Part shown: positions 1 to 13,451 of the stretch, piece by piece
Position numbering within the stretch: position 1 is the first letter of the stretch
Layout: each line of letters opens with the position of its first letter
DNA from: a virus
Taxonomy: Duplodnaviria > Heunggongvirae > Uroviricota > Caudoviricetes
IMG/VR virus record: IMGVR_UViG_3300026484_000248
Location: 1 to 34,710 of that record
Length of the DNA stretch: 34,710 bases
Strand: one strand, 5' to 3'
The notes under the pieces: generated by a model
The model's input: the letters and a program-made list of their open reading frames with translations, nothing else
Told to the model about the DNA's origin: nothing
Database searches by the model: none
Made by a program: the position numbers and the translations under genes

Positions 1-703
1 CAGACTCTTGTAAAACAACATTAACCTCTAGAATTGCATCATCAATAGTTTCTCTAATGGTAGATTTCTTTCTAGTTTCTTGTAAATCTGCTTCATCGAG
101 TAAATATTGCATAAACATATCTCCTAGCCTCGTCTTACCCGTCCCAGGAATACCACTTAATAATAATATATTGCTATCACTTAACATAAATTGACTAAAC
201 ATCTCTTTAATGTCTATATAGGGATAATAATCCTCTGAATTCATTTTAAAGTCATCTTTAACTTTAAACATATCATTTGCTTTTATCTGTTTATCAGCTG
301 TTAAATAAAAGTTTGTAATATTTACGAATAAATCGCTATCTTTATCTTGAAATTGTTGGATAATATCAAAAACTAATTTGGCTTTCTCATAACTATTGAA
401 ATAGTAATTTATTAGTATTTTTTTCTTAGTTTCGTAACTATCAAAAGTAATAAAATTATCCGGCGATTCAAGTACCGAAAAATTGTGAAAAATAGTTATA
501 GGGAAATCTGTTTGCGTAATATTTAAATCTATTTCTTTGATTTTTCTTTGTACTTCTTCTAAATCTTTGTATTTAATTTTTAAATCCGTAAATGCAAGCT
601 TGTATTTACCAAGTACATAGGCTGAGAAGCCTGCATCCTGGTCACTTGTATAGGAATCTTTGACTACATTTATCATAGTCTGAGTTTTTCTGTCTAATGA
701 CAT
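1..703 (-). CDS. AAA+ family ATPase, 3'-partial (runs off window start; not in ORF track)
   Basis: ATG at 703 preceded by AAAGGA. Translation begins MSLDRKTQTMINVVKDS and contains a Walker A motif in the same frame, NILLLSGIPGTGKTRLG (~125-172). Confidence 0.75.
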   Translation of the reverse strand, partial: MSLDRKTQTMINVVKDSYTSDQDAGFSAYVLGKYKLAFTDLKIKYKDLEEVQRKIKEIDLNITQTDFPITIFHNFSVLESPDNFITFDSYETKKKILINYYFNSYEKAKLVFDIIQQFQDKDSDLFVNITNFYLTADKQIKANDMFKVKDDFKMNSEDYYPYIDIKEMFSQFMLSDSNILLLSGIPGTGKTRLGDMFMQYLLDEADLQETRKKSTIRETIDDAILEVNVVLQES

Positions 704-1493: not shown

Positions 1494-1747
1494 TATAAAC
1501 CTCTTCTTTTCATTTCTTTTTCAATTCCTGCTTGTTGAAATAATTTAGTATAATCACCAAATCTTCCAGTATTTCCTCTACTCCAGGCTATTAAAGTTTT
1601 ATCATCTAATTTATGAATTTGAGTTAGCAATTCTTTTTTTGTTCTATTATCGCTATCAATTTTCTTCATAAAATCTAATAATACACTATCTACTTTATCC
1701 ATAAAACTTTCTTCAAGTTGTACCACTATTTCTCTAAATGTTTTCAT
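1493..1747 (-). CDS. Small hypothetical protein (possible capsid-internal protein)
   Basis: 84 aa, tightly packed between neighbours. N-terminus MKTFREIVVQLEE resembles T4 internal-protein capsid-targeting leaders. Confidence 0.6.
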   Translation of the reverse strand: MKTFREIVVQLEESFMDKVDSVLLDFMKKIDSDNRTKKELLTQIHKLDDKTLIAWSRGNTGRFGDYTKLFQQAGIEKEMKRRGL

Positions 1748-2038
1748 TTAATTTTTCTCCATTTCGTTTATCTTCTTCATCATCATCTCTGCTGCTTTAT
1801 CACCAAGTTCAGTAGACTTCTTACTACTTGTTCCTGTGAAAAATCCATAAACACTAGCAATTAATCCTGTGAATATCATAAATAATGTAACAACTTGTTC
1901 TGTAATTGGTATAGCCCAAATTATTGAACCAGTGAAAAGTAATAAAACAATTAATAAGTAAATAAATATAGTACTTAATAAAACTAATTTTCTCGTTCGA
2001 GATGTGTTGGCTTCAAGCCAATCAAAAAATTTAACCAT
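1748..2038 (-). CDS. Two-TMD membrane protein, candidate class II holin
   Basis: 96 aa with two hydrophobic helices (LVLLSTIFIYLLIVLLLFTGSIIW; VVTLFMIFTGLIASVYGFF) and a charged C-tail. Strong SD GGAGG and a late promoter upstream. Confidence 0.5.
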   Translation of the reverse strand: MVKFFDWLEANTSRTRKLVLLSTIFIYLLIVLLLFTGSIIWAIPITEQVVTLFMIFTGLIASVYGFFTGTSSKKSTELGDKAAEMMMKKINEMEKN

Positions 2039-2058
2039 AAAAAGTCCTCCTTTATGGT

Positions 2059-2066
2059 TATTTATA
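2059..2066 (-). promoter_or_regulatory. T4-type late promoter TATAAATA
   Basis: Exact TATAAATA 20 nt upstream of the holin-like ATG. Confidence 0.7.
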
Positions 2067-2068
2067 AA

Positions 2069-3235
2069 TTAGAGAAAGGCTGGAGGTTGTGCCATCATCA
2101 TTTCAACAGCAAAAGCTGCGGCACAAATTGCTTTATCTCTAGCAAGACTATGCATATCCTGATATTTAGCACATTGTAAAACTACCTGAGGGATGGAATC
2201 TTGTTTAAACCACTCATCTAAATTTTTAAAAACATAAGTGTAAAGCGAACCTGGGTCGTCTAAGTCTTGTAATTGTTTTCTTACATTAACAAAATCTTTT
2301 GCCTTAATTCCTTCTAAAATAGTTGTAAACTTTCCGCTCAAGTTAATCATAGAAACATCAAGATTTAATTTGTTGTCGTCTATACTTTGTTGGAGTACTA
2401 ATACCATTTTTCTAACTGATGGATACATATTTGAAACAACCGGACCTAAGTCTGCTTTGTTAAATTCCACTCCCTCATTTTCTAGAATAAATTGAAGTCT
2501 TTCAAATATTTGTGTTGCCACATCTTTTTTATTCTGATTATAAAGATTATCAAAATCAAAATGAATAAATCTGTTTCTCAAAGGCTCAATTAATTGCTCT
2601 TTATAATTACAAGTTAAAATAAATGTACTATCTTTTGAAAATTCCTCTATTTTGCCCCTTAGAATTTTTTGTGCTTCTGGAGTTAATCCATCTGCTTCAT
2701 CAATTACTACCAATTTAGGTGAGTCGTCTAACGATACACTAGACACAAAATCAGTAACTTTATTTCTGATGATATTAATTCCATTATCACCTGAACCATT
2801 AATCCACAGAACATCTGCATCCATTTCTTTAATAATTGAATTAACTATTGAAGTATTATGATGTATTACGCCATTTGGTGTTATATATAAATGAGGGTTA
2901 TCTATACTAATATCATAAACATAATCCTTTTTTATGAAAGTTGAATTGGTTTTGGTTATAGACTCATTAATAGTATCAATAACTTTACAATCTTTTGCTT
3001 TTTTTGTTGTACCGTTCTCTTGAAATAAATGTTCTGATGAACATTTAATACTTATTCCATTAGAAAATTCGTATTCGTAAATATCTTTGGGTGACTTTTT
3101 AATGAAACCTCTAATTTTTGTTAATTCACCAGAAGGCGTTTTAATATATATGCTATTTCTTTCAACAACTTTATCTACGGTTGAAATGTTTAATTTTTTA
3201 AATAAATCGCCTATTTTAATTTTAATCTTTTTCAT
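2069..3235 (-). CDS. gp44: Split clamp-loader subunit, C-half: 127-aa IntC fused to gp44 C-extein
   Basis: Intein block B (SIKCSSEHLF), block F (YVYDISID..HLY) and block G (GVIHHN|T), followed by RFC/gp44 motifs VVIDEADGLT (Walker B) and FILTCN, and LRNRF. Confidence 0.9.
   Translation of the reverse strand: MKKIKIKIGDLFKKLNISTVDKVVERNSIYIKTPSGELTKIRGFIKKSPKDIYEYEFSNGISIKCSSEHLFQENGTTKKAKDCKVIDTINESITKTNSTFIKKDYVYDISIDNPHLYITPNGVIHHNTSIVNSIIKEMDADVLWINGSGDNGINIIRNKVTDFVSSVSLDDSPKLVVIDEADGLTPEAQKILRGKIEEFSKDSTFILTCNYKEQLIEPLRNRFIHFDFDNLYNQNKKDVATQIFERLQFILENEGVEFNKADLGPVVSNMYPSVRKMVLVLQQSIDDNKLNLDVSMINLSGKFTTILEGIKAKDFVNVRKQLQDLDDPGSLYTYVFKNLDEWFKQDSIPQVVLQCAKYQDMHSLARDKAICAAAFAVEMMMAQPPAFL
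2855..3235 (-). mobile_element. C-terminal fragment (IntC, 127 aa) of an atypically split mini-intein
   Basis: Ends His-His-Asn with Thr at +1. Contains the block B His and has no endonuclease domain. Confidence 0.85.
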
Positions 3236-3257
3236 TATTATCCTTTATTTTGCTTCT

Positions 3258-3279
3258 TCTATAATACAGCCCTGCTTAA
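3258..3279 (-). promoter_or_regulatory. Degenerate TTAAG-N11-TATAga promoter in the 46-bp spacer between the gp44 halves
   Basis: TTAAG-CAGGGCTGTAT-TATAGA, followed by SD AAAGGA and the IntC ATG. Confidence 0.4.
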
Positions 3280-3281
3280 TG

Positions 3282-3515
3282 TTACTTCAAAAGTTCGTAC
3301 ATTTCTTCAGATACATATAATTCTAACTCTTCATCATAATCTAAACACTTTCCTAGACCTGGATTTGTACTTGATAACAAAATATGAGGAAATCTTTCAT
3401 CTTTTACATATTTTTTAAATTTCTCTCTTGCACTTGTTGGCAATATTACATCATCAATACATTGTGGCCTATATTTCTCACTCCAAATAAAATGTGACTC
3501 ATCTACTAATTTCAT
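3282..3515 (-). CDS. gp44: Split clamp-loader subunit, N-half: gp44 N-extein (56 aa) fused to 21-aa IntN
   Basis: WSEKYRPQCIDDVILP matches the RFC/gp44 N-terminus. The Walker A PGLGK is followed by intein block A CLDYDEEL. Confidence 0.9.
   Translation of the reverse strand: MKLVDESHFIWSEKYRPQCIDDVILPTSAREKFKKYVKDERFPHILLSSTNPGLGKCLDYDEELELYVSEEMYELLK
3285..3347 (-). mobile_element. N-terminal fragment (IntN, 21 aa) of the split intein
   Basis: CLDYDEELELYVSEEMYELLK begins with Cys1 immediately after GK of the P-loop. Confidence 0.8.
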
Positions 3516-3543
3516 TTCGTTCCTTTTAATTTATTATACTATA

Positions 3544-3565
3544 ATTATAGTATAAAAATACTTAA
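3544..3565 (-). promoter_or_regulatory. TTAAG-N11-TATAAT promoter for gp44-N
   Basis: TTAAG-TATTTTTATAC-TATAAT, embedded in the last codons of the upstream endonuclease gene. Confidence 0.65.
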
Positions 3566-4492
3566 TATATTTTCTCTAATGTCTTCAGAAAATATTTCAG
3601 TATTACCATGGTTAATAACTTTGCTGCCAGCGTACTTAACCGCACTATTGTTTTGTAAAATTTCCTGCTCCTGATAATATGCTTCAGCTCCATTTGAATA
3701 AACTTTACTATATATAACTTCATAATTATCTGCTCCAAATCTACGCTTCAGAGATGAAATGACATCTCCCCTAAACAAAGTAACCCCTATTTTCCATAAT
3801 CCTACTATTTTGATATAGTAGAGTATAGTTTTTTTACCCATATAAAACTTAGCTGTATGGAATCCTCCAGAGCATTCGTAACAATGAATTCCTCTAAGAA
3901 CATCATACGGTTTTATTTTCCATTCCTCTCCGCAAGAACATAGATGTAAAGACTTTAAATCTCTTCCTAACATGCATTCTAAAGGTACTACATCTATAGA
4001 ACGCTCTTTAATTTCTTTTAGATATATTAAATGTTCTGCTTTTAAGTGCTTCCTTTTAGAGCAGATTCTACAGTTTATACCTTTACCCTTTCTATATGTG
4101 GTAATTGCTTTAGGGCTTATATTTTCAGTATTGCCACAAAATCTACATCTATGTTTAATGGCAGTTCCAAAAGAGATATAACTTTCTAAGGCTTCCCAAT
4201 ATTCAGATCTTTTACATTTTTCTTTATATTCTCTTATTGCATTTTCTTTATTTGGTCTTTTAGCTTTAGCCTGTTTTTCTTTATTTTGTTTGCTTAAACA
4301 GTTTTTACTACAGCATGTATCCCTAAAACCCTTAGATAGAGAAATAAATTTGGGTGTTTTATTGCAGTATTTGCATTTGGGCTCTTCTAAATCATTAAGT
4401 ATAAGATAAATCCTATACACCTCTATATTAAGATTAGGTTTCAGTCTCCCTGCTTTAGTTAAATAATTTTCTTTTATGAATTCTTTAGTCAT
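3545..4492 (-). CDS. Putative free-standing homing endonuclease: CxxC zinc modules + C-terminal GIY-YIG-like (T5orf172-type) domain
   Basis: Several CxxC pairs (CKYC, CRFC, CRIC, CSCG, CYEC). The C-terminus reads ILYYIKIVGLWKIGVT..KRRF..AYYQEQEIL. Confidence 0.65.
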   Translation of the reverse strand: MTKEFIKENYLTKAGRLKPNLNIEVYRIYLILNDLEEPKCKYCNKTPKFISLSKGFRDTCCSKNCLSKQNKEKQAKAKRPNKENAIREYKEKCKRSEYWEALESYISFGTAIKHRCRFCGNTENISPKAITTYRKGKGINCRICSKRKHLKAEHLIYLKEIKERSIDVVPLECMLGRDLKSLHLCSCGEEWKIKPYDVLRGIHCYECSGGFHTAKFYMGKKTILYYIKIVGLWKIGVTLFRGDVISSLKRRFGADNYEVIYSKVYSNGAEAYYQEQEILQNNSAVKYAGSKVINHGNTEIFSEDIRENILSIFIL

Positions 4493-4529
4493 GATTTAAT
4501 CCTATAGTTAAAATTATAAGAGCGTAAGG

Positions 4530-4549
4530 TGTGGGATAGCAGTCCCACA
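4530..4549. promoter_or_regulatory. GC-rich hairpin upstream of the endonuclease gene
   Basis: TGTGGGA-TAGCAG-TCCCACA, a 7-bp perfect stem in an AT-rich intergenic region. Confidence 0.5.
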
Positions 4550-4612
4550 TTATATATTTTTCAAGTACCACTAAGAGTAGATAACTTATCTATAATGTTG
4601 TTTATAAGCAGT

Positions 4613-5194
4613 TTAAATAGCTATTCGTTCTAGCATTAAACTTTTAATTAATTCTCTTGACTGCTCTGAAAATGAAACATATAATAACAATTTCTCTATT
4701 TTCTGTATTAGTATTTTATTAATTCTACTTTTACTAAGCTCTTCTAAAGATGCTTTGGGATCACTTGATGCCTCCAAATAAAAATAAAATGTAAACCATT
4801 TAATATTATTATTTCTGTACTCGTTGACCATATAGTCCAAATCTACTTTTGACTCCTCACTATTAATTCTGTCTATATCCTCTTTAAGAAATTTTCTATA
4901 ATTAATAATTTCATTTTTAAACTGAATAACTTTTTTGTCGTCTAAGTCTGTTAGTTTTTCAATAGCACCTACTAAAGAAGAAGGACCTTCTTTAAAGTTT
5001 ACATAAAGATTAGAAAGAATAAAATTTTCTCTGGTTTTTAACTTAAACTTAGCCGATGGAAAAATATATGACATTTGTTCCATTTTTTTAATACTATGTT
5101 TAACAGCAAAGCTCCGTTTATTAGACTCTTTATTGTGAAAAGTGGTAAAAATGCCAGCGCACATCTGATACATATCCTTAAAGCTGATACTCAT
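4613..5194 (-). CDS. gp59: Helicase loader gp59-like protein
   Basis: Segments FILSNL, FLKEDIDRI and NNIKWFTF resemble T4 gp59. Adjacent to a gp33-like gene, as in T4. Confidence 0.55.
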   Translation of the reverse strand: MSISFKDMYQMCAGIFTTFHNKESNKRSFAVKHSIKKMEQMSYIFPSAKFKLKTRENFILSNLYVNFKEGPSSLVGAIEKLTDLDDKKVIQFKNEIINYRKFLKEDIDRINSEESKVDLDYMVNEYRNNNIKWFTFYFYLEASSDPKASLEELSKSRINKILIQKIEKLLLYVSFSEQSRELIKSLMLERIAI

Positions 5195-5476
5195 CTACCA
5201 CTCCTCGTCTAACATCTCTATTTCATCAAATAAGTCGTTTTCCATTCTGAAATACCCATCTTTTGCTAAAGTTTTCCTAAATATTGAAGAAAAATCTTTA
5301 TTATCAGCAATAGTATTACCTATTTCTTGTAATGGTATATCTGTATAATGACTATATTCTATAATAGTTTCCAAGAAAGAGAGATCTTGAGCTCTTTCTT
5401 TTTTAAATTTAAAAATATCTTCTATTAACATCGTTGCCTTATGATAAAGTACTGCGTCGCTTTCTATTTTGTTCAT
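5195..5476 (-). CDS. gp33: Late-transcription co-activator gp33-like protein
   Basis: LSFLETIIEYSHYTDIPLQEI resembles the gp33 core. 93 aa, acidic C-tail, next to gp59. Confidence 0.55.
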   Translation of the reverse strand: MNKIESDAVLYHKATMLIEDIFKFKKERAQDLSFLETIIEYSHYTDIPLQEIGNTIADNKDFSSIFRKTLAKDGYFRMENDLFDEIEMLDEEW

Positions 5477-5498
5477 TTACATCCTTTACTGTTACTAT

Positions 5499-5520
5499 AT
5501 TATACAGTAGGGGAACTTAA
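5499..5520 (-). promoter_or_regulatory. TTAAG-N11-TATAAT promoter
   Basis: TTAAG-TTCCCCTACTG-TATAAT upstream of the gp33-like gene. Confidence 0.7.
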
Positions 5521-10627: not shown

Positions 10628-12385
10628 CTAGTTGGAAACTTTAATAATTATTTTATATTCTGGTAAGTAAAGATACTCTAATTTTGATTTCTCTAATGTA
10701 TATAATGCATCATCTATTGTTTCAACAAGTGGGTCACCACCTAAGTTAAAAGATGTATTAAATACTAAAGGAACACCAGTTTGATTTTTAAACTCTGTTA
10801 TCAGATTATGATAATGCTCATTTTGGTCTTTTGTAACTGTCTGAATTCTACAAGTTCCATCAATATGAATTACGCTTGGAATTTTTTCTTCTACGCCTGG
10901 TTGACAATTAACAGCATACATCATATGAGGTGAGCTTTCCATTCCTCTTAAATCGAACCAATCTTTCGTGTCTTCTTTAAGTACAGATGCTGCAAACGGT
11001 CTAAAATATTCTCTATTTTTAATAAGATTTACATAATCTTTACCATCTTTAAAAGTTGGGTCAAACATTAAACTTCTGTTTCCTAATGCTCTTGGTCCAT
11101 TTTCTGATTTACCCTGGAACATAGCAACAATATTTTTATCTCTCATAATTTTAACTGCATCTGCATAAGTTGCATTAGTGTTAATAATTTCAGCATTTTG
11201 TACTTTCGCTACTGCATTTGCAATATCTTCATCTGAATAATTATATTCAAAACCGAAATATAAAGTATCACTTCTTTTTCTTACGGTTGAATCATTAGTT
11301 ACTTTATGATATTGTGCCATAGCAGCACCAATGGCAGTTCCAGCATCATTTGAAATTGGTTCAACATATAAGTTAATACCTTCATCTTTTAATTGTCCTA
11401 AATACCAGTAATTAGCAACACAATTTAATCCATATCCACCTGAAATAACAACATTTTTATTTCCTGACATTTTAACCGCTTTTCTAATTAAATCAAGAAC
11501 TTGTTGTTGAGATTGTGTTTGAACAGCATAAGCCATATCTCGTCTATTTTGAAGTAATGTAACATCTTCAACTTCTTCAAAAGGACCTTCTAATTCTTTA
11601 TATTTATTTGCATTTACTAAAGCACCATTTGGATATGTAGGAATAATTAAATTTCTATTTGTACTTGTCCAAGCGGCTAATCCATCTTCATTATGATAAA
11701 TTTTTGGAATTTTTAAGTTCTCTTTTCCATAAGGAAAAAGTCCCATTGTTTTACCTGCTTCTATAGGTTGCCATCCACAATATTGGGTAACAGCTTCATA
11801 AGCTTTTACAATACCTGCACTTTCATTTATAACTGTTTCACAACCTTTATTATCGGTAAATCTGGCACTACCAAACGGTCCTCTTCCACCAATATGAGTA
11901 TAAATTTTCTTAAACTCTGCTGGATAAGCACACTCAAATATTGATTCTGTTTCCCATACGGTTTCTTGGCCCATTGATAAAAATGTTCCGGCTCCATCAA
12001 CGATTAATGAAACTGCTTTTTCAAAACCACTTCTATAAAAAGCTACTGCTGCATGCTGTTCATGATGATTTTCATGAACCTCAATTACTTTTTTATCTAT
12101 ATCTTTTTCATCTATAAGTCTTAATTTTCTTATAAGAGCTTTATAAACAGTATCTCCTGAAAAATCAGTTCTTGAATCATCTTCTTGTGTATGAGAAATC
12201 ACCAAATAATCTAATTTATCCGTATAATCTAAAATTTTAACTATAGAAGCATAAGGTCCACCATCATATTTTTTTCTTGATAATCGTTCTTCTTCTATAC
12301 TAAAAACAACTTCTCCATCTTTTAGTAAACAAACTCCACCATTATGACCTCTTGCTATACCTGCGATATATCCTGTTTTATTCAT
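10628..12385 (-). CDS. O-carbamoyltransferase (NodU/CmcH/TobZ family)
   Basis: EEERLSRKK, HHEQHAAVAF, DGAG, AGKTMGLFPYG, SGGYGLNCVAN, NDAGTAIGAA, GPRALGNRS, REYFRPFA, HIDGTCRIQTV and NTSFN. Confidence 0.92.
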   Translation of the reverse strand: MNKTGYIAGIARGHNGGVCLLKDGEVVFSIEEERLSRKKYDGGPYASIVKILDYTDKLDYLVISHTQEDDSRTDFSGDTVYKALIRKLRLIDEKDIDKKVIEVHENHHEQHAAVAFYRSGFEKAVSLIVDGAGTFLSMGQETVWETESIFECAYPAEFKKIYTHIGGRGPFGSARFTDNKGCETVINESAGIVKAYEAVTQYCGWQPIEAGKTMGLFPYGKENLKIPKIYHNEDGLAAWTSTNRNLIIPTYPNGALVNANKYKELEGPFEEVEDVTLLQNRRDMAYAVQTQSQQQVLDLIRKAVKMSGNKNVVISGGYGLNCVANYWYLGQLKDEGINLYVEPISNDAGTAIGAAMAQYHKVTNDSTVRKRSDTLYFGFEYNYSDEDIANAVAKVQNAEIINTNATYADAVKIMRDKNIVAMFQGKSENGPRALGNRSLMFDPTFKDGKDYVNLIKNREYFRPFAASVLKEDTKDWFDLRGMESSPHMMYAVNCQPGVEEKIPSVIHIDGTCRIQTVTKDQNEHYHNLITEFKNQTGVPLVFNTSFNLGGDPLVETIDDALYTLEKSKLEYLYLPEYKIIIKVSN

Positions 12386-12412
12386 TTTTATCCTTATTTT
12401 TTCTATTAATGT

Positions 12413-12434
12413 ATTATATTATAATTCTACTTAA
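12413..12434 (-). promoter_or_regulatory. TTAAG-N11-TATAAT promoter
   Basis: TTAAG-TAGAATTATAA-TATAAT upstream of the carbamoyltransferase, with a second TTAAG 5 nt further upstream. Confidence 0.7.
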
Positions 12435-12452
12435 GATTTCTTAATGTTGTAG

Positions 12453-13451
12453 CTATTTACTACAACATTTTCCTGAACTGCAAGATTTTTTCTCTTCTAC
12501 TTGCACTGGTTCTGTATTCATTGTTCCTTTAACATAATTAGAAATACTAATTATATCAGATTCTTGTATATTAAAACATTCTTCATTATTCATTTCCACT
12601 CTTTCATCTTGTGAAATTCTAATAGGGCTGTATTCTCTTGTATCTTTACCTAAATCAATAGTATTGTAATTTTTTGCTCCTGGATATCCAACATTTTCTG
12701 GAAATGTGCTACCAAAAATAACAGTACAAGGTTTATTTAAACCAAAAGCAATATGTTGTCCAACACTATCACACCCCACAAAATGGTCTGCTTGTTTAAT
12801 TACTGATGCCCATTCTCTTAATGAAACATTTATAGTTCCCACTTTTACGTCAGAAGGAGTTTGAATATCTATATTTGCCATCACCATTACAACTGAATGC
12901 TTACTTAACTCTCTAATAATGTCAATTGCTGCTTCATAAGTAATACTTCTTCCACTAGGGTCAAATATTTTACCATTTTCATTAACAACTCCTGAACCAA
13001 ACGGTTGGAAAACTACCATATTAGATTTTCCTGATTGCTGTTTAATATCATTAACAATCATTTGACCTTTAGAAATTTCACTTCTAGTTAAAGAAACTTG
13101 TGCTCTATAATCTTCATAATTATCTGACATATCTCCATTAATTTCTATATCGAAACCTTGTGCAATATTACATTCCTGATTATAATATTTTTTATTCCTA
13201 TAAGGTTCAACTGGAACTATTACAGAATCTTTTATAAAGTCCTTAAATAAATCTTTATGATTTGTATGATAAGTTCTTTTATGAAGTAATTTGTTATTTT
13301 TGAAAAAATCATCTGAACCTTCAGCAACGATAATAAAATCTTCACCTTTTACAGCAAGTTTTTCCAAAGCAGGAATTGAAGCTAGTACTCTACCGGCACC
13401 ACCATTGATAAATATTGACTTTTTTGTTTGATTTTCTGTCTTGTTTGACAT
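12453..13451 (-). CDS. GT-B glycosyltransferase, GT9 (heptosyltransferase)-like
   Basis: N-terminal GGAGRVLASIPALEKL and C-terminal FVGCDSVGQHIAFGLNKPCTVIFGST match the GT9 patterns GD..++.P.+..L and DSG..H+A.A+..P.+.+FG.T. Confidence 0.7.
   Translation of the reverse strand: MSNKTENQTKKSIFINGGAGRVLASIPALEKLAVKGEDFIIVAEGSDDFFKNNKLLHKRTYHTNHKDLFKDFIKDSVIVPVEPYRNKKYYNQECNIAQGFDIEINGDMSDNYEDYRAQVSLTRSEISKGQMIVNDIKQQSGKSNMVVFQPFGSGVVNENGKIFDPSGRSITYEAAIDIIRELSKHSVVMVMANIDIQTPSDVKVGTINVSLREWASVIKQADHFVGCDSVGQHIAFGLNKPCTVIFGSTFPENVGYPGAKNYNTIDLGKDTREYSPIRISQDERVEMNNEECFNIQESDIISISNYVKGTMNTEPVQVEEKKSCSSGKCCSK

What the first reader, a model, noticed from the sequence alone, without database searches (positions are those of the whole stretch)
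2069..3515. Clamp-loader gene gp44 split in two by an atypically split intein (21-aa IntN, 127-aa IntC)
Seen: gene 1 ends ...PGLGK|CLDYDEELELYVSEEMYELLK*. Gene 2 starts MKKIKIKIGDLFKK, carries block B (CSSEH) and ends the intein at GVIHHN|TS. Splicing would rebuild Walker A GLGKT and give 56+261=317 aa, a normal gp44 length. IntN is strongly acidic (8 D/E, 1 K) and the IntC N-terminus is basic, the charge complementarity expected of split inteins. Known: most split inteins have long IntN and short IntC; short-IntN inteins are a rare class valued for protein semisynthesis. The site corresponds to the P-loop position used by archaeal RFC inteins. Inference: the clamp loader depends on protein trans-splicing with a Thr +1 nucleophile, possibly a new ultra-short split-intein tool and a post-translational control point.
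Basis: partly seen in the sequence, partly recalled or inferred. Interest (0 to 1): 0.9.

Follow-up and report, generated by a model that had tools for sequence, protein, structure and literature searches.

The report
Phage clamp-loader gene split by intein
A deep-sea-vent phage encodes its DNA-polymerase clamp loader as two adjacent genes that most likely are stitched together after translation by a self-splicing protein element whose first piece is only 21 residues long; this is a real new example of a rare but already known kind of split intein.

Summary
On the minus strand, a 77-aa ORF (3515..3282) carries 56 aa of gp44 up to the Walker A lysine, then a 21-aa acidic IntN. A 46-nt spacer closed in both relevant frames follows. 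A 388-aa ORF (3235..2069) carries a 127-aa IntC ending HHN|T, then 261 aa of gp44.

The join gives 317 aa and aligns without a gap to intein-less gp44. IntC folds as a HINT domain, and a complex model places IntN as the missing first strands.

The split is not an artefact. A contig from a second sample bridges it with no differences. Six diverged metagenomic relatives keep the same split, with IntN under purifying selection.

Relatives show every stage: no intein, contiguous intein, an inserted ORF of up to 429 aa (a putative nuclease gene) between the halves, its decayed remnants, and short spacers as here. The break lies at the 'S1' site, as in the published VidaL and PolB16 inteins, but the sequence is far from VidaL.

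The 21-aa IntN is not a record; 15-16 aa are published. The proposed regulatory role has no support.

This scan has noted atypically split clamp-loader inteins in other genomes (e1-5320432, e1-5406545).

Verdict: new member of a known kind. Splicing itself is untested.

The parts
3348..3515 (-). gp44 N-extein, residues 1-56, ending at the Walker A lysine (GLGK)
   Evidence: It aligns to the N-terminus of intein-less gp44 proteins and to N-fragments P0028-P0030.
3285..3347 (-). IntN, 21 aa (Cys1, block A strands, then an acidic tail), followed by stop codon 3282-3284
   Evidence: It is conserved in 6 relatives with pN 0.17-0.30 against pS 0.63 or more. In the complex model, chain residues 60-68 pair antiparallel with IntC residues 3-11.
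3236..3281 (-). 46-nt spacer between the halves. It has stops in the N-fragment frame and in the IntC frame, and AAAGGA before the ATG. It is probably what remains after loss of the inserted ORF.
   Evidence: The AAAATAA(A)GGA stretch before the start codon is shared with relatives. In L005 and L015 it is the 3' end of the inserted ORF or its relic.
2855..3235 (-). IntC, 127 aa: strand and helix after the S1 site, block B (SSEH), block F (VYDISI..PHLY), block G (HHN)
   Evidence: Pfam PF14890. PF14890 matches at 2969-3229 and 2855-2962. AF2 model pLDDT 88.4, and the listed Foldseek PDB matches are nearly all inteins. PDB sequence hit to Cat intein C (E 1.8e-4). Invariant H69, D108, H125, H126, N127, T128 across 26 homologues.
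2069..2854 (-). gp44 C-extein, 261 aa starting with Thr+1 (completes Walker A), Walker B VVIDEADG, lid and collar domains; includes the stop codon
   Evidence: Pfam AAA 2.1e-8, DNA_pol3_delta2 4e-7, Gp44_lid 0.012. 37% identity to Campylobacter phage gp44, E 2e-49. It is the only copy in the 100-kb record.
3545..4492 (-). 315-aa free-standing ORF directly upstream of the N-fragment: zinc-finger-like CxxC repeats plus a weak GIY-YIG-clan C-terminus; a putative homing endonuclease. It is adjacent to the split intein but is not one of its parts.
   Evidence: It is absent at this position in relatives, where the 190-aa gene abuts the gp44 N-fragment. It is related to the 490-aa ORF between the halves of the second gp44 intein in L005 (E 1e-8). 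Pfam gives only sub-threshold hits to GIY-YIG, T5orf172 and MUG113 across the three ORFs. PHROGs gives nothing.

Best explanation
The large clamp-loader subunit (gp44) of this T4-like phage from a hydrothermal-vent metagenome is made as two polypeptides. The first is ExtN(56 aa)-IntN(21 aa). The second is IntC(127 aa)-ExtC(261 aa), translated from its own ribosome-binding site 46 nt downstream, probably on the same transcript. The acidic IntN supplies the first strands (block A with Cys1) that the IntC HINT domain lacks. It docks against the basic N-terminal strand of IntC. The reassembled class-1 intein then carries out protein trans-splicing: N-S acyl shift at Cys1, transesterification to Thr+1, Asn127 cyclisation and O-N shift. 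This joins GLGK to TS and rebuilds the Walker A loop of a 317-aa gp44. The break lies at the 'S1' position, after the first two strands. It most likely arose when a free-standing ORF (a putative homing endonuclease gene) inserted into that loop of a contiguous mini-intein and was later deleted, leaving the short spacer. Shown: the anatomy, the conservation, the fold, the modelled docking and the evolutionary series. Inferred: that splicing happens, its chemistry, co-transcription and the order of evolutionary events.
For: The anatomy and the exact extein join are shown. The spliced 317-aa product aligns across the junction without a gap to the intein-less gp44 of pf16, Melnitz and RHph_Y68. 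An intein-less allele reads GLGKTS (P0031).

All catalytic positions are present and invariant in 26 homologues: block B His, block F Asp, HHN and Thr+1. Cys1 is invariant in 7 N-fragments.

The AF2 model of IntC has pLDDT 88.4. Its listed Foldseek matches in the PDB are nearly all inteins, including the atypically split Cat (6DSL) and VidaL (6VGV).

The complex model gives ipSAE 0.83 against a best control of 0.01. That mark was reached by 58 of 80 solved complexes and 2 of 110 mismatched pairs. The three runs share at least 69% of contacts, and the partner pLDDT is at least 53. My own alignments were used, so the counts hold only roughly. Split-intein complexes are solved, so the pass may reflect likeness rather than binding.

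Contiguous inteins sit at the same site in relatives: P0009, P0011 and P0012 at 65-67% identity, plus LR756508.1 and L044. Their sequence runs straight through the split point.

The same split, with a 21-23 aa acidic IntN, occurs in L005, L008, L009, L016, L017 and L018. IntN has pN 0.17-0.30 against pS 0.63 or more, similar to the extein.

The offset between the two reading frames differs among these loci and the spacers carry stops. This rules out a conserved frameshift or ribosomal bypass.

A contig from an independent sample bridges the junction identically. Only one gp44 is present in the 100-kb record.
Against: No experiment or proteomic data shows the spliced product. Pfam's intein match is below its curated cut-off (31.9 against 35.8 bits). 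Block B reads SxxH rather than the usual TxxH. The viral record is only about 46% complete, so a second, intact clamp-loader gene elsewhere cannot be excluded. Thr+1 is a weaker nucleophile than Cys or Ser in many inteins, so efficiency is unknown. The complex model can pass through resemblance to solved split inteins.
Confidence: 0.85

Rival explanations
1. The two polypeptides assemble non-covalently through the intein pieces, acting as interaction domains without splicing. A fragmented phage NrdA is known to be reassembled without ligation in this way.
For: A precedent for non-covalent assembly of a gene split by a mobile element exists (PMC3045599, listed). The complex model speaks only to docking, not to chemistry.
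Against: The break is inside the Walker A loop (GK|T), which needs a continuous backbone. A 148-aa intein left there would disrupt the ATP site. Every splicing residue is invariant across 26 diverged homologues in several host proteins, which is not expected if chemistry were dispensable.
Confidence: 0.05
2. The split copy is a decaying or non-functional gp44. Clamp loading is supplied by another gene in the unsequenced half of the genome or by the host.
For: The record is about 46% complete. The inserted ORF that probably caused the break has been lost here, which shows ongoing erosion at the locus.
Against: Both halves are intact ORFs with a ribosome-binding site. IntN and the extein show pN/pS well below 1 across six pairwise comparisons. 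The same layout persists in six diverged relatives. No second gp44 was found in 100 kb.
Confidence: 0.06
3. The split is an assembly or sequencing artefact, or it is read through by frameshifting or ribosomal bypass so that a contiguous intein precursor is made.
For: The spacer is short (46 nt). Phage T4 gene 60 shows that 50-nt bypass exists (my own knowledge).
Against: A contig from another sample and study covers 3023-3700 with no differences. The IntC frame is closed by a TAA 9 nt before the ATG, and the N-fragment frame has two stops. Relatives have spacers of 47-102 nt, or 1.2-1.3 kb with an inserted ORF, and every possible offset between the two frames. No conserved recoding signal is therefore possible.
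Confidence: 0.02

Closest known systems
VidaL intein (PDB 6VGV; Burton et al. 2020, cited in PMC13014065) and PolB16 OarG intein (PMC10189870): naturally atypically split at the S1 position
   Same: They are natural split inteins from metagenomic phage-like DNA. They have a very short IntN (16 and 15 aa) that carries only the first strands, and a long IntC that carries block B and everything after it. The split comes right after strand beta2 (PMC13014065). VidaL is also cysteine-dependent. The IntC model matches 6VGV structurally (TM 0.62).
   Different: Sequence relationship to VidaL is remote: 19% identity in the structural alignment, and profile E 0.05. IntN here is longer (21 aa) because of a 9-residue acidic tail after the strands. 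The host protein is gp44 and the +1 residue is Thr. PolB16 is Ser1/Ser+1 and cysteine-independent.
AceL-TerL / GOS-TerL / consensus 'Cat' atypically split terminase inteins (PDB 6DSL)
   Same: Cat C is the closest solved relative in the single-sequence search (E 1.8e-4, 26% identity). They have a short IntN and a long IntC, come from phage genes, and use Cys1 (AceL, Cat).
   Different: Those inteins are split at S2, after the first helix (IntN 25-37 aa; PMC13014065, PMC11766414). Here the helix belongs to IntC. They use Cys+1, whereas this intein uses Thr+1. The host protein is the terminase, not the clamp loader.
'Fractured genes' of Dassa et al. 2009 (PMC2677866)
   Same: [quoted passage not shown] One locus without the endonuclease (gp41-7) was described. 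The gene-breaking model fits the series seen here (L018 intact, L016 broken, L015 remnant, L005 relic, window none).
   Different: The eight host enzymes listed there do not include a clamp loader. All but the terminase intein break at the canonical endonuclease-insertion site. In this window no gene lies between the halves, and a related ORF sits upstream instead.
P-loop inteins of archaeal RFC small subunit and Walker B inteins of cyanobacterial DnaX (PMC4760082)
   Same: They are inteins in orthologous clamp-loader ATPases at the P-loop (RFC-S site a). The second intein seen in relatives sits right after Walker B, as in DnaX.
   Different: As described in the passages I read, those are inteins of cellular clamp-loader genes. 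I saw nothing about them being split. I did not verify the exact residue of insertion.

Membership tests
Class 1 intein (HINT splicing domain) | Nucleophile (Cys/Ser) at intein position 1 | tested here: met
   Cys57 of the 77-aa ORF follows GLGK directly. It is invariant in 7 N-fragments and in the contiguous homologues.
Class 1 intein (HINT splicing domain) | Block B TxxH, block F Asp, and terminal His-Asn | tested here: met
   SSEH (Ser in place of Thr), VYDISI and HHN are present. H69, D108, H125, H126 and N127 are invariant in 26 sequences.
Class 1 intein (HINT splicing domain) | Cys/Ser/Thr at +1 of the C-extein | tested here: met
   Thr128 is invariant and is the Walker A threonine.
Class 1 intein (HINT splicing domain) | HINT fold | tested here: met
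   AF2 pLDDT 88.4. Nearly all of the 50 listed Foldseek PDB matches are inteins, with probability 1.00. The profile matches the gp41-1 intein at E 7.8e-9. The Pfam PF14890 match is below its cut-off.
Class 1 intein (HINT splicing domain) | In-frame insertion whose removal restores the host protein | tested here: met
   The 317-aa join aligns without a gap to intein-less gp44. An intein-less allele exists (P0031).
Class 1 intein (HINT splicing domain) | Protein splicing activity | not testable with these tools
   This needs expression and detection of the ligated product.
Naturally atypically split intein, S1 type | IntN well under 40 aa and IntC over 100 aa on separate ORFs | tested here: met
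   IntN is 21 aa and IntC is 127 aa. The ORFs are separated by stops and a frame change.
Naturally atypically split intein, S1 type | Break after the first two strands and before the strand-helix that precedes block B | tested here: met
   Alignment with contiguous homologues places the break between ...EIEVFI and KLKIGDLF. In the model, IntN intein residues 4-12 pair with IntC residues 3-11. Helix 8-14 lies in IntC.
Naturally atypically split intein, S1 type | The halves associate and trans-splice | tested here: inconclusive
   The complex model supports docking (0.83 against a control of 0.01), but it is not a measurement. Splicing is not testable here.
Fractured gene (Dassa et al. 2009) | Free-standing endonuclease gene between the two intein halves | tested here: not met
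   The window has only a 46-nt spacer. The feature is met in relatives L016 and L018, and by a remnant in L015. The nuclease family of that ORF is unidentified.
T4-type clamp loader large subunit gp44 | AAA+ module with Walker A/B plus the gp44 lid, and similarity to known gp44 | tested here: met
   Pfam AAA 2.1e-8 and DNA_pol3_delta2 4e-7; Gp44_lid 0.012 is sub-threshold. tblastn to Campylobacter phage gp44 gives 37% identity, E 2e-49.

The most novel reading that the evidence does not exclude
The gp44 P-loop intein lineage records repeated, independent breaking of a mini-intein at the non-canonical S1 loop by an invading free-standing ORF. All intermediate stages are preserved in nature. In close relatives (L005 and four other proteins) gp44 is encoded in three pieces, which must be joined by two different split inteins: this S1-atypical one, and a canonical one after Walker B. 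That would be a natural tandem trans-splicing pair, with an IntN short enough for peptide synthesis and a Cys1/Thr+1 chemistry that I did not find among the published atypically split inteins whose +1 residue I could check.
Probability: 0.55. Interest if true: 0.6.

Novelty: new member of a known kind. Interest (0 to 1): 0.45.

Why it matters
Naturally atypically split inteins are few, and they are sought after because a short IntN can be made as a synthetic peptide for protein semisynthesis and labelling. This locus adds a sequence-distant S1-type example with Cys1/Thr+1 in a new host protein. It comes with a ready-made panel of natural variants: IntN of 21-33 aa, and contiguous and split sisters. 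That panel could be mined for fast or orthogonal pairs. For biology, it shows that an essential replication ATPase of a vent phage probably depends on trans-splicing within its ATP-binding loop. The relatives give an unusually complete picture of how a mobile ORF breaks an intein at a non-canonical site and then disappears.

Tried and rejected
- blastn of 1500-5500 against cultured phage records found no match.
- The apparent tblastn coverage from residue 58-70 in RHph_Y68, Melnitz and pf16 was a spurious extension. Their gp44 genes are of normal length and intein-less.
- No RNA holder is listed for this stretch.
- Run X1, the likely source, laid no contigs. By the tool's own note this can be false.
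- The promoter/terminator scan found fewer promoter-like sites than shuffled sequence, and no minus-strand terminator between the halves. It is not informative.
- The ORFs between or beside the halves could not be assigned to a nuclease family. There are only sub-threshold GIY-YIG, T5orf172 and MUG113 hits, nothing for the L018 and L016 ORFs, and nothing in the PDB or PHROGs. My impression that their C-terminus looks Vsr-like or PD-(D/E)xK-like is untested.
- The Burton 2020 and Thiel 2014 papers are not held. I therefore could not compare VidaL host proteins or +1 residues directly.
- UvsX-type and helicase-type relatives do not match VidaL by sequence either.
- Frameshift or bypass read-through was considered and rejected, because frames and spacers vary.

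Full report
**What is in the sequence.** Two ORFs lie head to tail on the minus strand.
- ORF 3515..3282 (77 aa) reads like the N-terminus of a T4-type gp44 up to the Walker A lysine (GLGK).
- It then continues with Cys and 20 more residues (8 Asp/Glu, 1 Lys) and stops.
- After 46 nt, ORF 3235..2069 (388 aa) begins, in a different frame.
- The spacer carries two stops in the first frame. A TAA closes the second frame 9 nt before the ATG, and an AAAGGA ribosome-binding motif precedes the ATG.
- The first 127 residues of the second ORF end in HHN. The next residue is Thr, followed by a complete AAA+ module (Walker B VVIDEADG).
- Pfam reports Intein_splicing on residues 3-89 (E 1.4e-7, just under the curated cut-off). 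It also reports AAA, DNA_pol3_delta2 and, weakly, Gp44_lid downstream.
- Joining residue 56 of the first protein to residue 128 of the second gives 317 aa. This aligns across the junction, without a gap, to the intein-less gp44 of phages pf16, Melnitz and RHph_Y68.

**It is real DNA, not an artefact.**
- The window is the first 34.7 kb of a 100,462-bp IMG/VR virus record, estimated at 46% complete.
- The stretch occurs in hydrothermal-vent metagenomes.
- A 2,476-nt contig from a different sample and study covers 3023-3700 with no differences and no gaps.

**It is an intein.**
- An AlphaFold2 model of IntC plus 13 extein residues, built on 26 homologues, has mean pLDDT 88.4.
- Its listed Foldseek matches in the PDB are nearly all inteins. 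They include RadA, DnaB, NpuDnaE and gp41-1, the atypically split Cat intein 6DSL, and VidaL 6VGV at rank 24.
- By single-sequence search the closest solved chain is Cat C (E 1.8e-4). With a profile, the gp41-1 intein scores 7.8e-9 and VidaL only 0.05.
- In the 26-sequence alignment, the block B His, block F Asp, His-His-Asn and Thr+1 are invariant. Cys1 is invariant in all N-fragments.

**Where it is split.**
- Contiguous inteins sit at exactly the same gp44 site in relatives: P0009, P0011 and P0012 at 65-67% identity, plus LR756508.1 and L044.
- Aligning them shows that IntN equals the first two strands (CLDYDEELELYV) plus a 9-residue acidic tail. IntC begins with the next strand and the first helix.
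- This is the 'S1' position. PMC13014065 gives it for the natural VidaL (16-aa IntN) and PolB16 OarG (15-aa IntN) inteins. AceL-TerL and GOS-TerL are instead split after the helix ('S2').
- A complex prediction places IntN residues 60-68 antiparallel to IntC residues 3-11. It also places IntN near block B, block F and the HN|T end.
- The complex score is ipSAE 0.83 against a best control of 0.01. That mark was reached by 58 of 80 solved complexes and 2 of 110 mismatched pairs. The runs share at least 69% of contacts, and the partner pLDDT is at least 53.
- My own alignments were used for that prediction, so the counts hold only roughly. Split-intein complexes are solved, so the pass may reflect likeness rather than binding.
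- Charge complementarity holds locally. IntN is -3 to -9 in all seven loci, and the first 16 residues of IntC are 0 to +5 in the ten homologues counted (+5 in the window). Whole-IntC charge varies from -6 to +10.

**The split is maintained by selection.** The layout recurs in six diverged metagenomic loci: L005 (also L006/L007), L008, L009, L016, L017 and L018. Each has an N-fragment ending in a 21-23 aa IntN.
- Across the four loci compared codon by codon, IntN shows pN 0.17-0.30 against pS 0.63 or more. This is much like the adjacent extein, at pN 0.19-0.25.
- The offset between the two reading frames differs from locus to locus.
- The gaps range from 46-102 nt to about 1.2-1.3 kb.

No conserved frameshift or bypass can therefore explain expression. 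Only one gp44 is found in the 100-kb record, although the missing half of the genome leaves room for doubt.

**How the break probably arose.** The relatives form a series.
- L018 has an intact 429-aa ORF between the halves.
- L016 has the same ORF broken into 273 + 154 aa.
- L015 keeps a 92-aa remnant, made of the N-terminal 15 residues fused to the C-terminal 75 or so.
- The 102-nt spacer of L005 aligns almost base for base with the 3' end of that remnant.
- L017 (62 nt) and the window (46 nt) keep only the AAAATAA(A)GGA stretch before the IntC start.

An intein-less allele also exists (P0031). This matches the gene-breaking model of Dassa et al. 2009 (PMC2677866), but at a non-canonical site.

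In a maximum-likelihood tree of the IntC region, the contiguous forms P0009, P0011 and P0012 branch at the base of the window's clade (clade support 97/97; the split forms are nested at 94/91). Two other contiguous forms pair with split forms elsewhere: L044 with L025 at 100/97, and LR756508 with L029 at 94/82. So the split or contiguous state changed at least three times. The tree is midpoint-rooted, so the direction of change is not established.

The nuclease family of the inserted ORF could not be identified.

**The neighbouring ORF.** In the window, a 315-aa ORF (3545..4492) lies directly upstream of the N-fragment. In relatives, the conserved 190-aa gene abuts the N-fragment at that place. 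This ORF is related to the 490-aa ORF that sits between the halves of a second gp44 intein in L005 (E 1e-8). It has only sub-threshold GIY-YIG-clan hits. It is a plausible free-standing homing endonuclease, but that is unproven.

**How common this is.**
- The same IntC family, starting at the same point and ending HHN|T (one terminase-like locus, L027, ends NHN|S), is attached to several other proteins: UvsX/RecA, AAA ATPases, DnaB-like or RadA-like helicases, and 650-aa terminase-like proteins.
- A scan of IMG/VR returned 42 loci. They include further split gp44 genes (L020, L021, L025, L029-L032).
- Their N-fragments have IntN of 24-33 aa and lie 127 nt to 1.4 kb upstream of IntC.
- The window's 21-aa IntN is the shortest I saw in this family. 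It is longer than the published minimum.
- This scan has also noted atypically split clamp-loader inteins in other genomes (e1-5320432, e1-5406545) and a fractured nrdA elsewhere in this genome (e1-1857129, e1-1857130). I did not re-test those.

**Comparison with the literature.**
- Published natural atypically split inteins have IntN of 15-37 aa (PMC13014065, PMC10189870, PMC11766414).
- The eight host enzymes of the 2009 fractured-gene survey do not include a clamp loader.
- A full-text search for 'clamp loader' plus 'split intein' plus 'phage' gave only two papers, neither describing this.
- Inteins in the P-loop of archaeal RFC-S, and after Walker B in cyanobacterial DnaX, are known (PMC4760082).
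- I could not read Thiel 2014 or Burton 2020, so a gp44 example in their supplementary lists cannot be excluded.

**Verdict.** This is a genuine, selectively maintained, S1-type atypically split class-1 intein in gp44, and a new member of a known kind. Trans-splicing is strongly implied but untested. The claims of a record-short IntN and of a regulatory role are not supported.

Noticed in passing
L005:3001-6232 (also proteins P0002, P0006, P0008, P0013, P0020): In close relatives gp44 is in three pieces. After the S1-split intein there is a second, canonically split intein right after Walker B (VVIDE|C...), with a 490-aa free-standing ORF between its halves and a 35-aa IntC ending SN|C. The window's gp44 lacks this second intein (VVIDEADG).
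   Followed up: partly
window 3545-4492 (-): A 315-aa ORF with CxxC zinc-finger-like repeats and a weak GIY-YIG-clan C-terminus is inserted between the conserved 193-aa gene and the gp44 N-fragment. It is absent at this position in relatives and is related to the ORF inside the second gp44 intein of L005.
   Followed up: partly
L034, L038 (UvsX); L022 (RadA/helicase-like); L024, L027 (terminase-like); P0016, P0017 (AAA): The same S1-split intein family, with an acidic 24-30 aa IntN, sits at the GK|T (GK|S in L027) P-loop site of several other phage ATPases. Contiguous UvsX versions occur in L039 and L056-L059.
   Followed up: partly
L008:3238-3284 and L009:1780-1829: The region upstream of the inserted ORF carries GTATAAATAG or GTATAAATAT, which resembles the T4 late-promoter core TATAAATA (my own knowledge). 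The window's spacer has GTATTATAG at the matching place.
   Followed up: no
L001:2727-3941 (LR756508.1): Directly downstream of the contiguous-intein gp44 of this 484-kb uncultured phage lies a 404-aa ORF whose C-terminus has a CxxC...CxxC motif. It looks TnpB/IS605 OrfB-like by eye.
   Followed up: no
own record G000:C1:52742-57781 (outside the window): There are three further Intein_splicing matches, some with in-frame stops. They correspond to the fractured nrdA described by earlier notes of this scan.
   Followed up: no
window 10628-13451 (-): A carbamoyltransferase (Pfam E 1.9e-57) and a family-9 glycosyltransferase-like gene lie in the phage genome. They are possible auxiliary genes for sugar or nucleotide modification.
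   Followed up: no
window 2-703 (-): An ORF truncated by the window end carries a P-loop (GIPGTGKT) and matches nSTAND3 at exactly the curated cut-off (27.2 bits).
   Followed up: no
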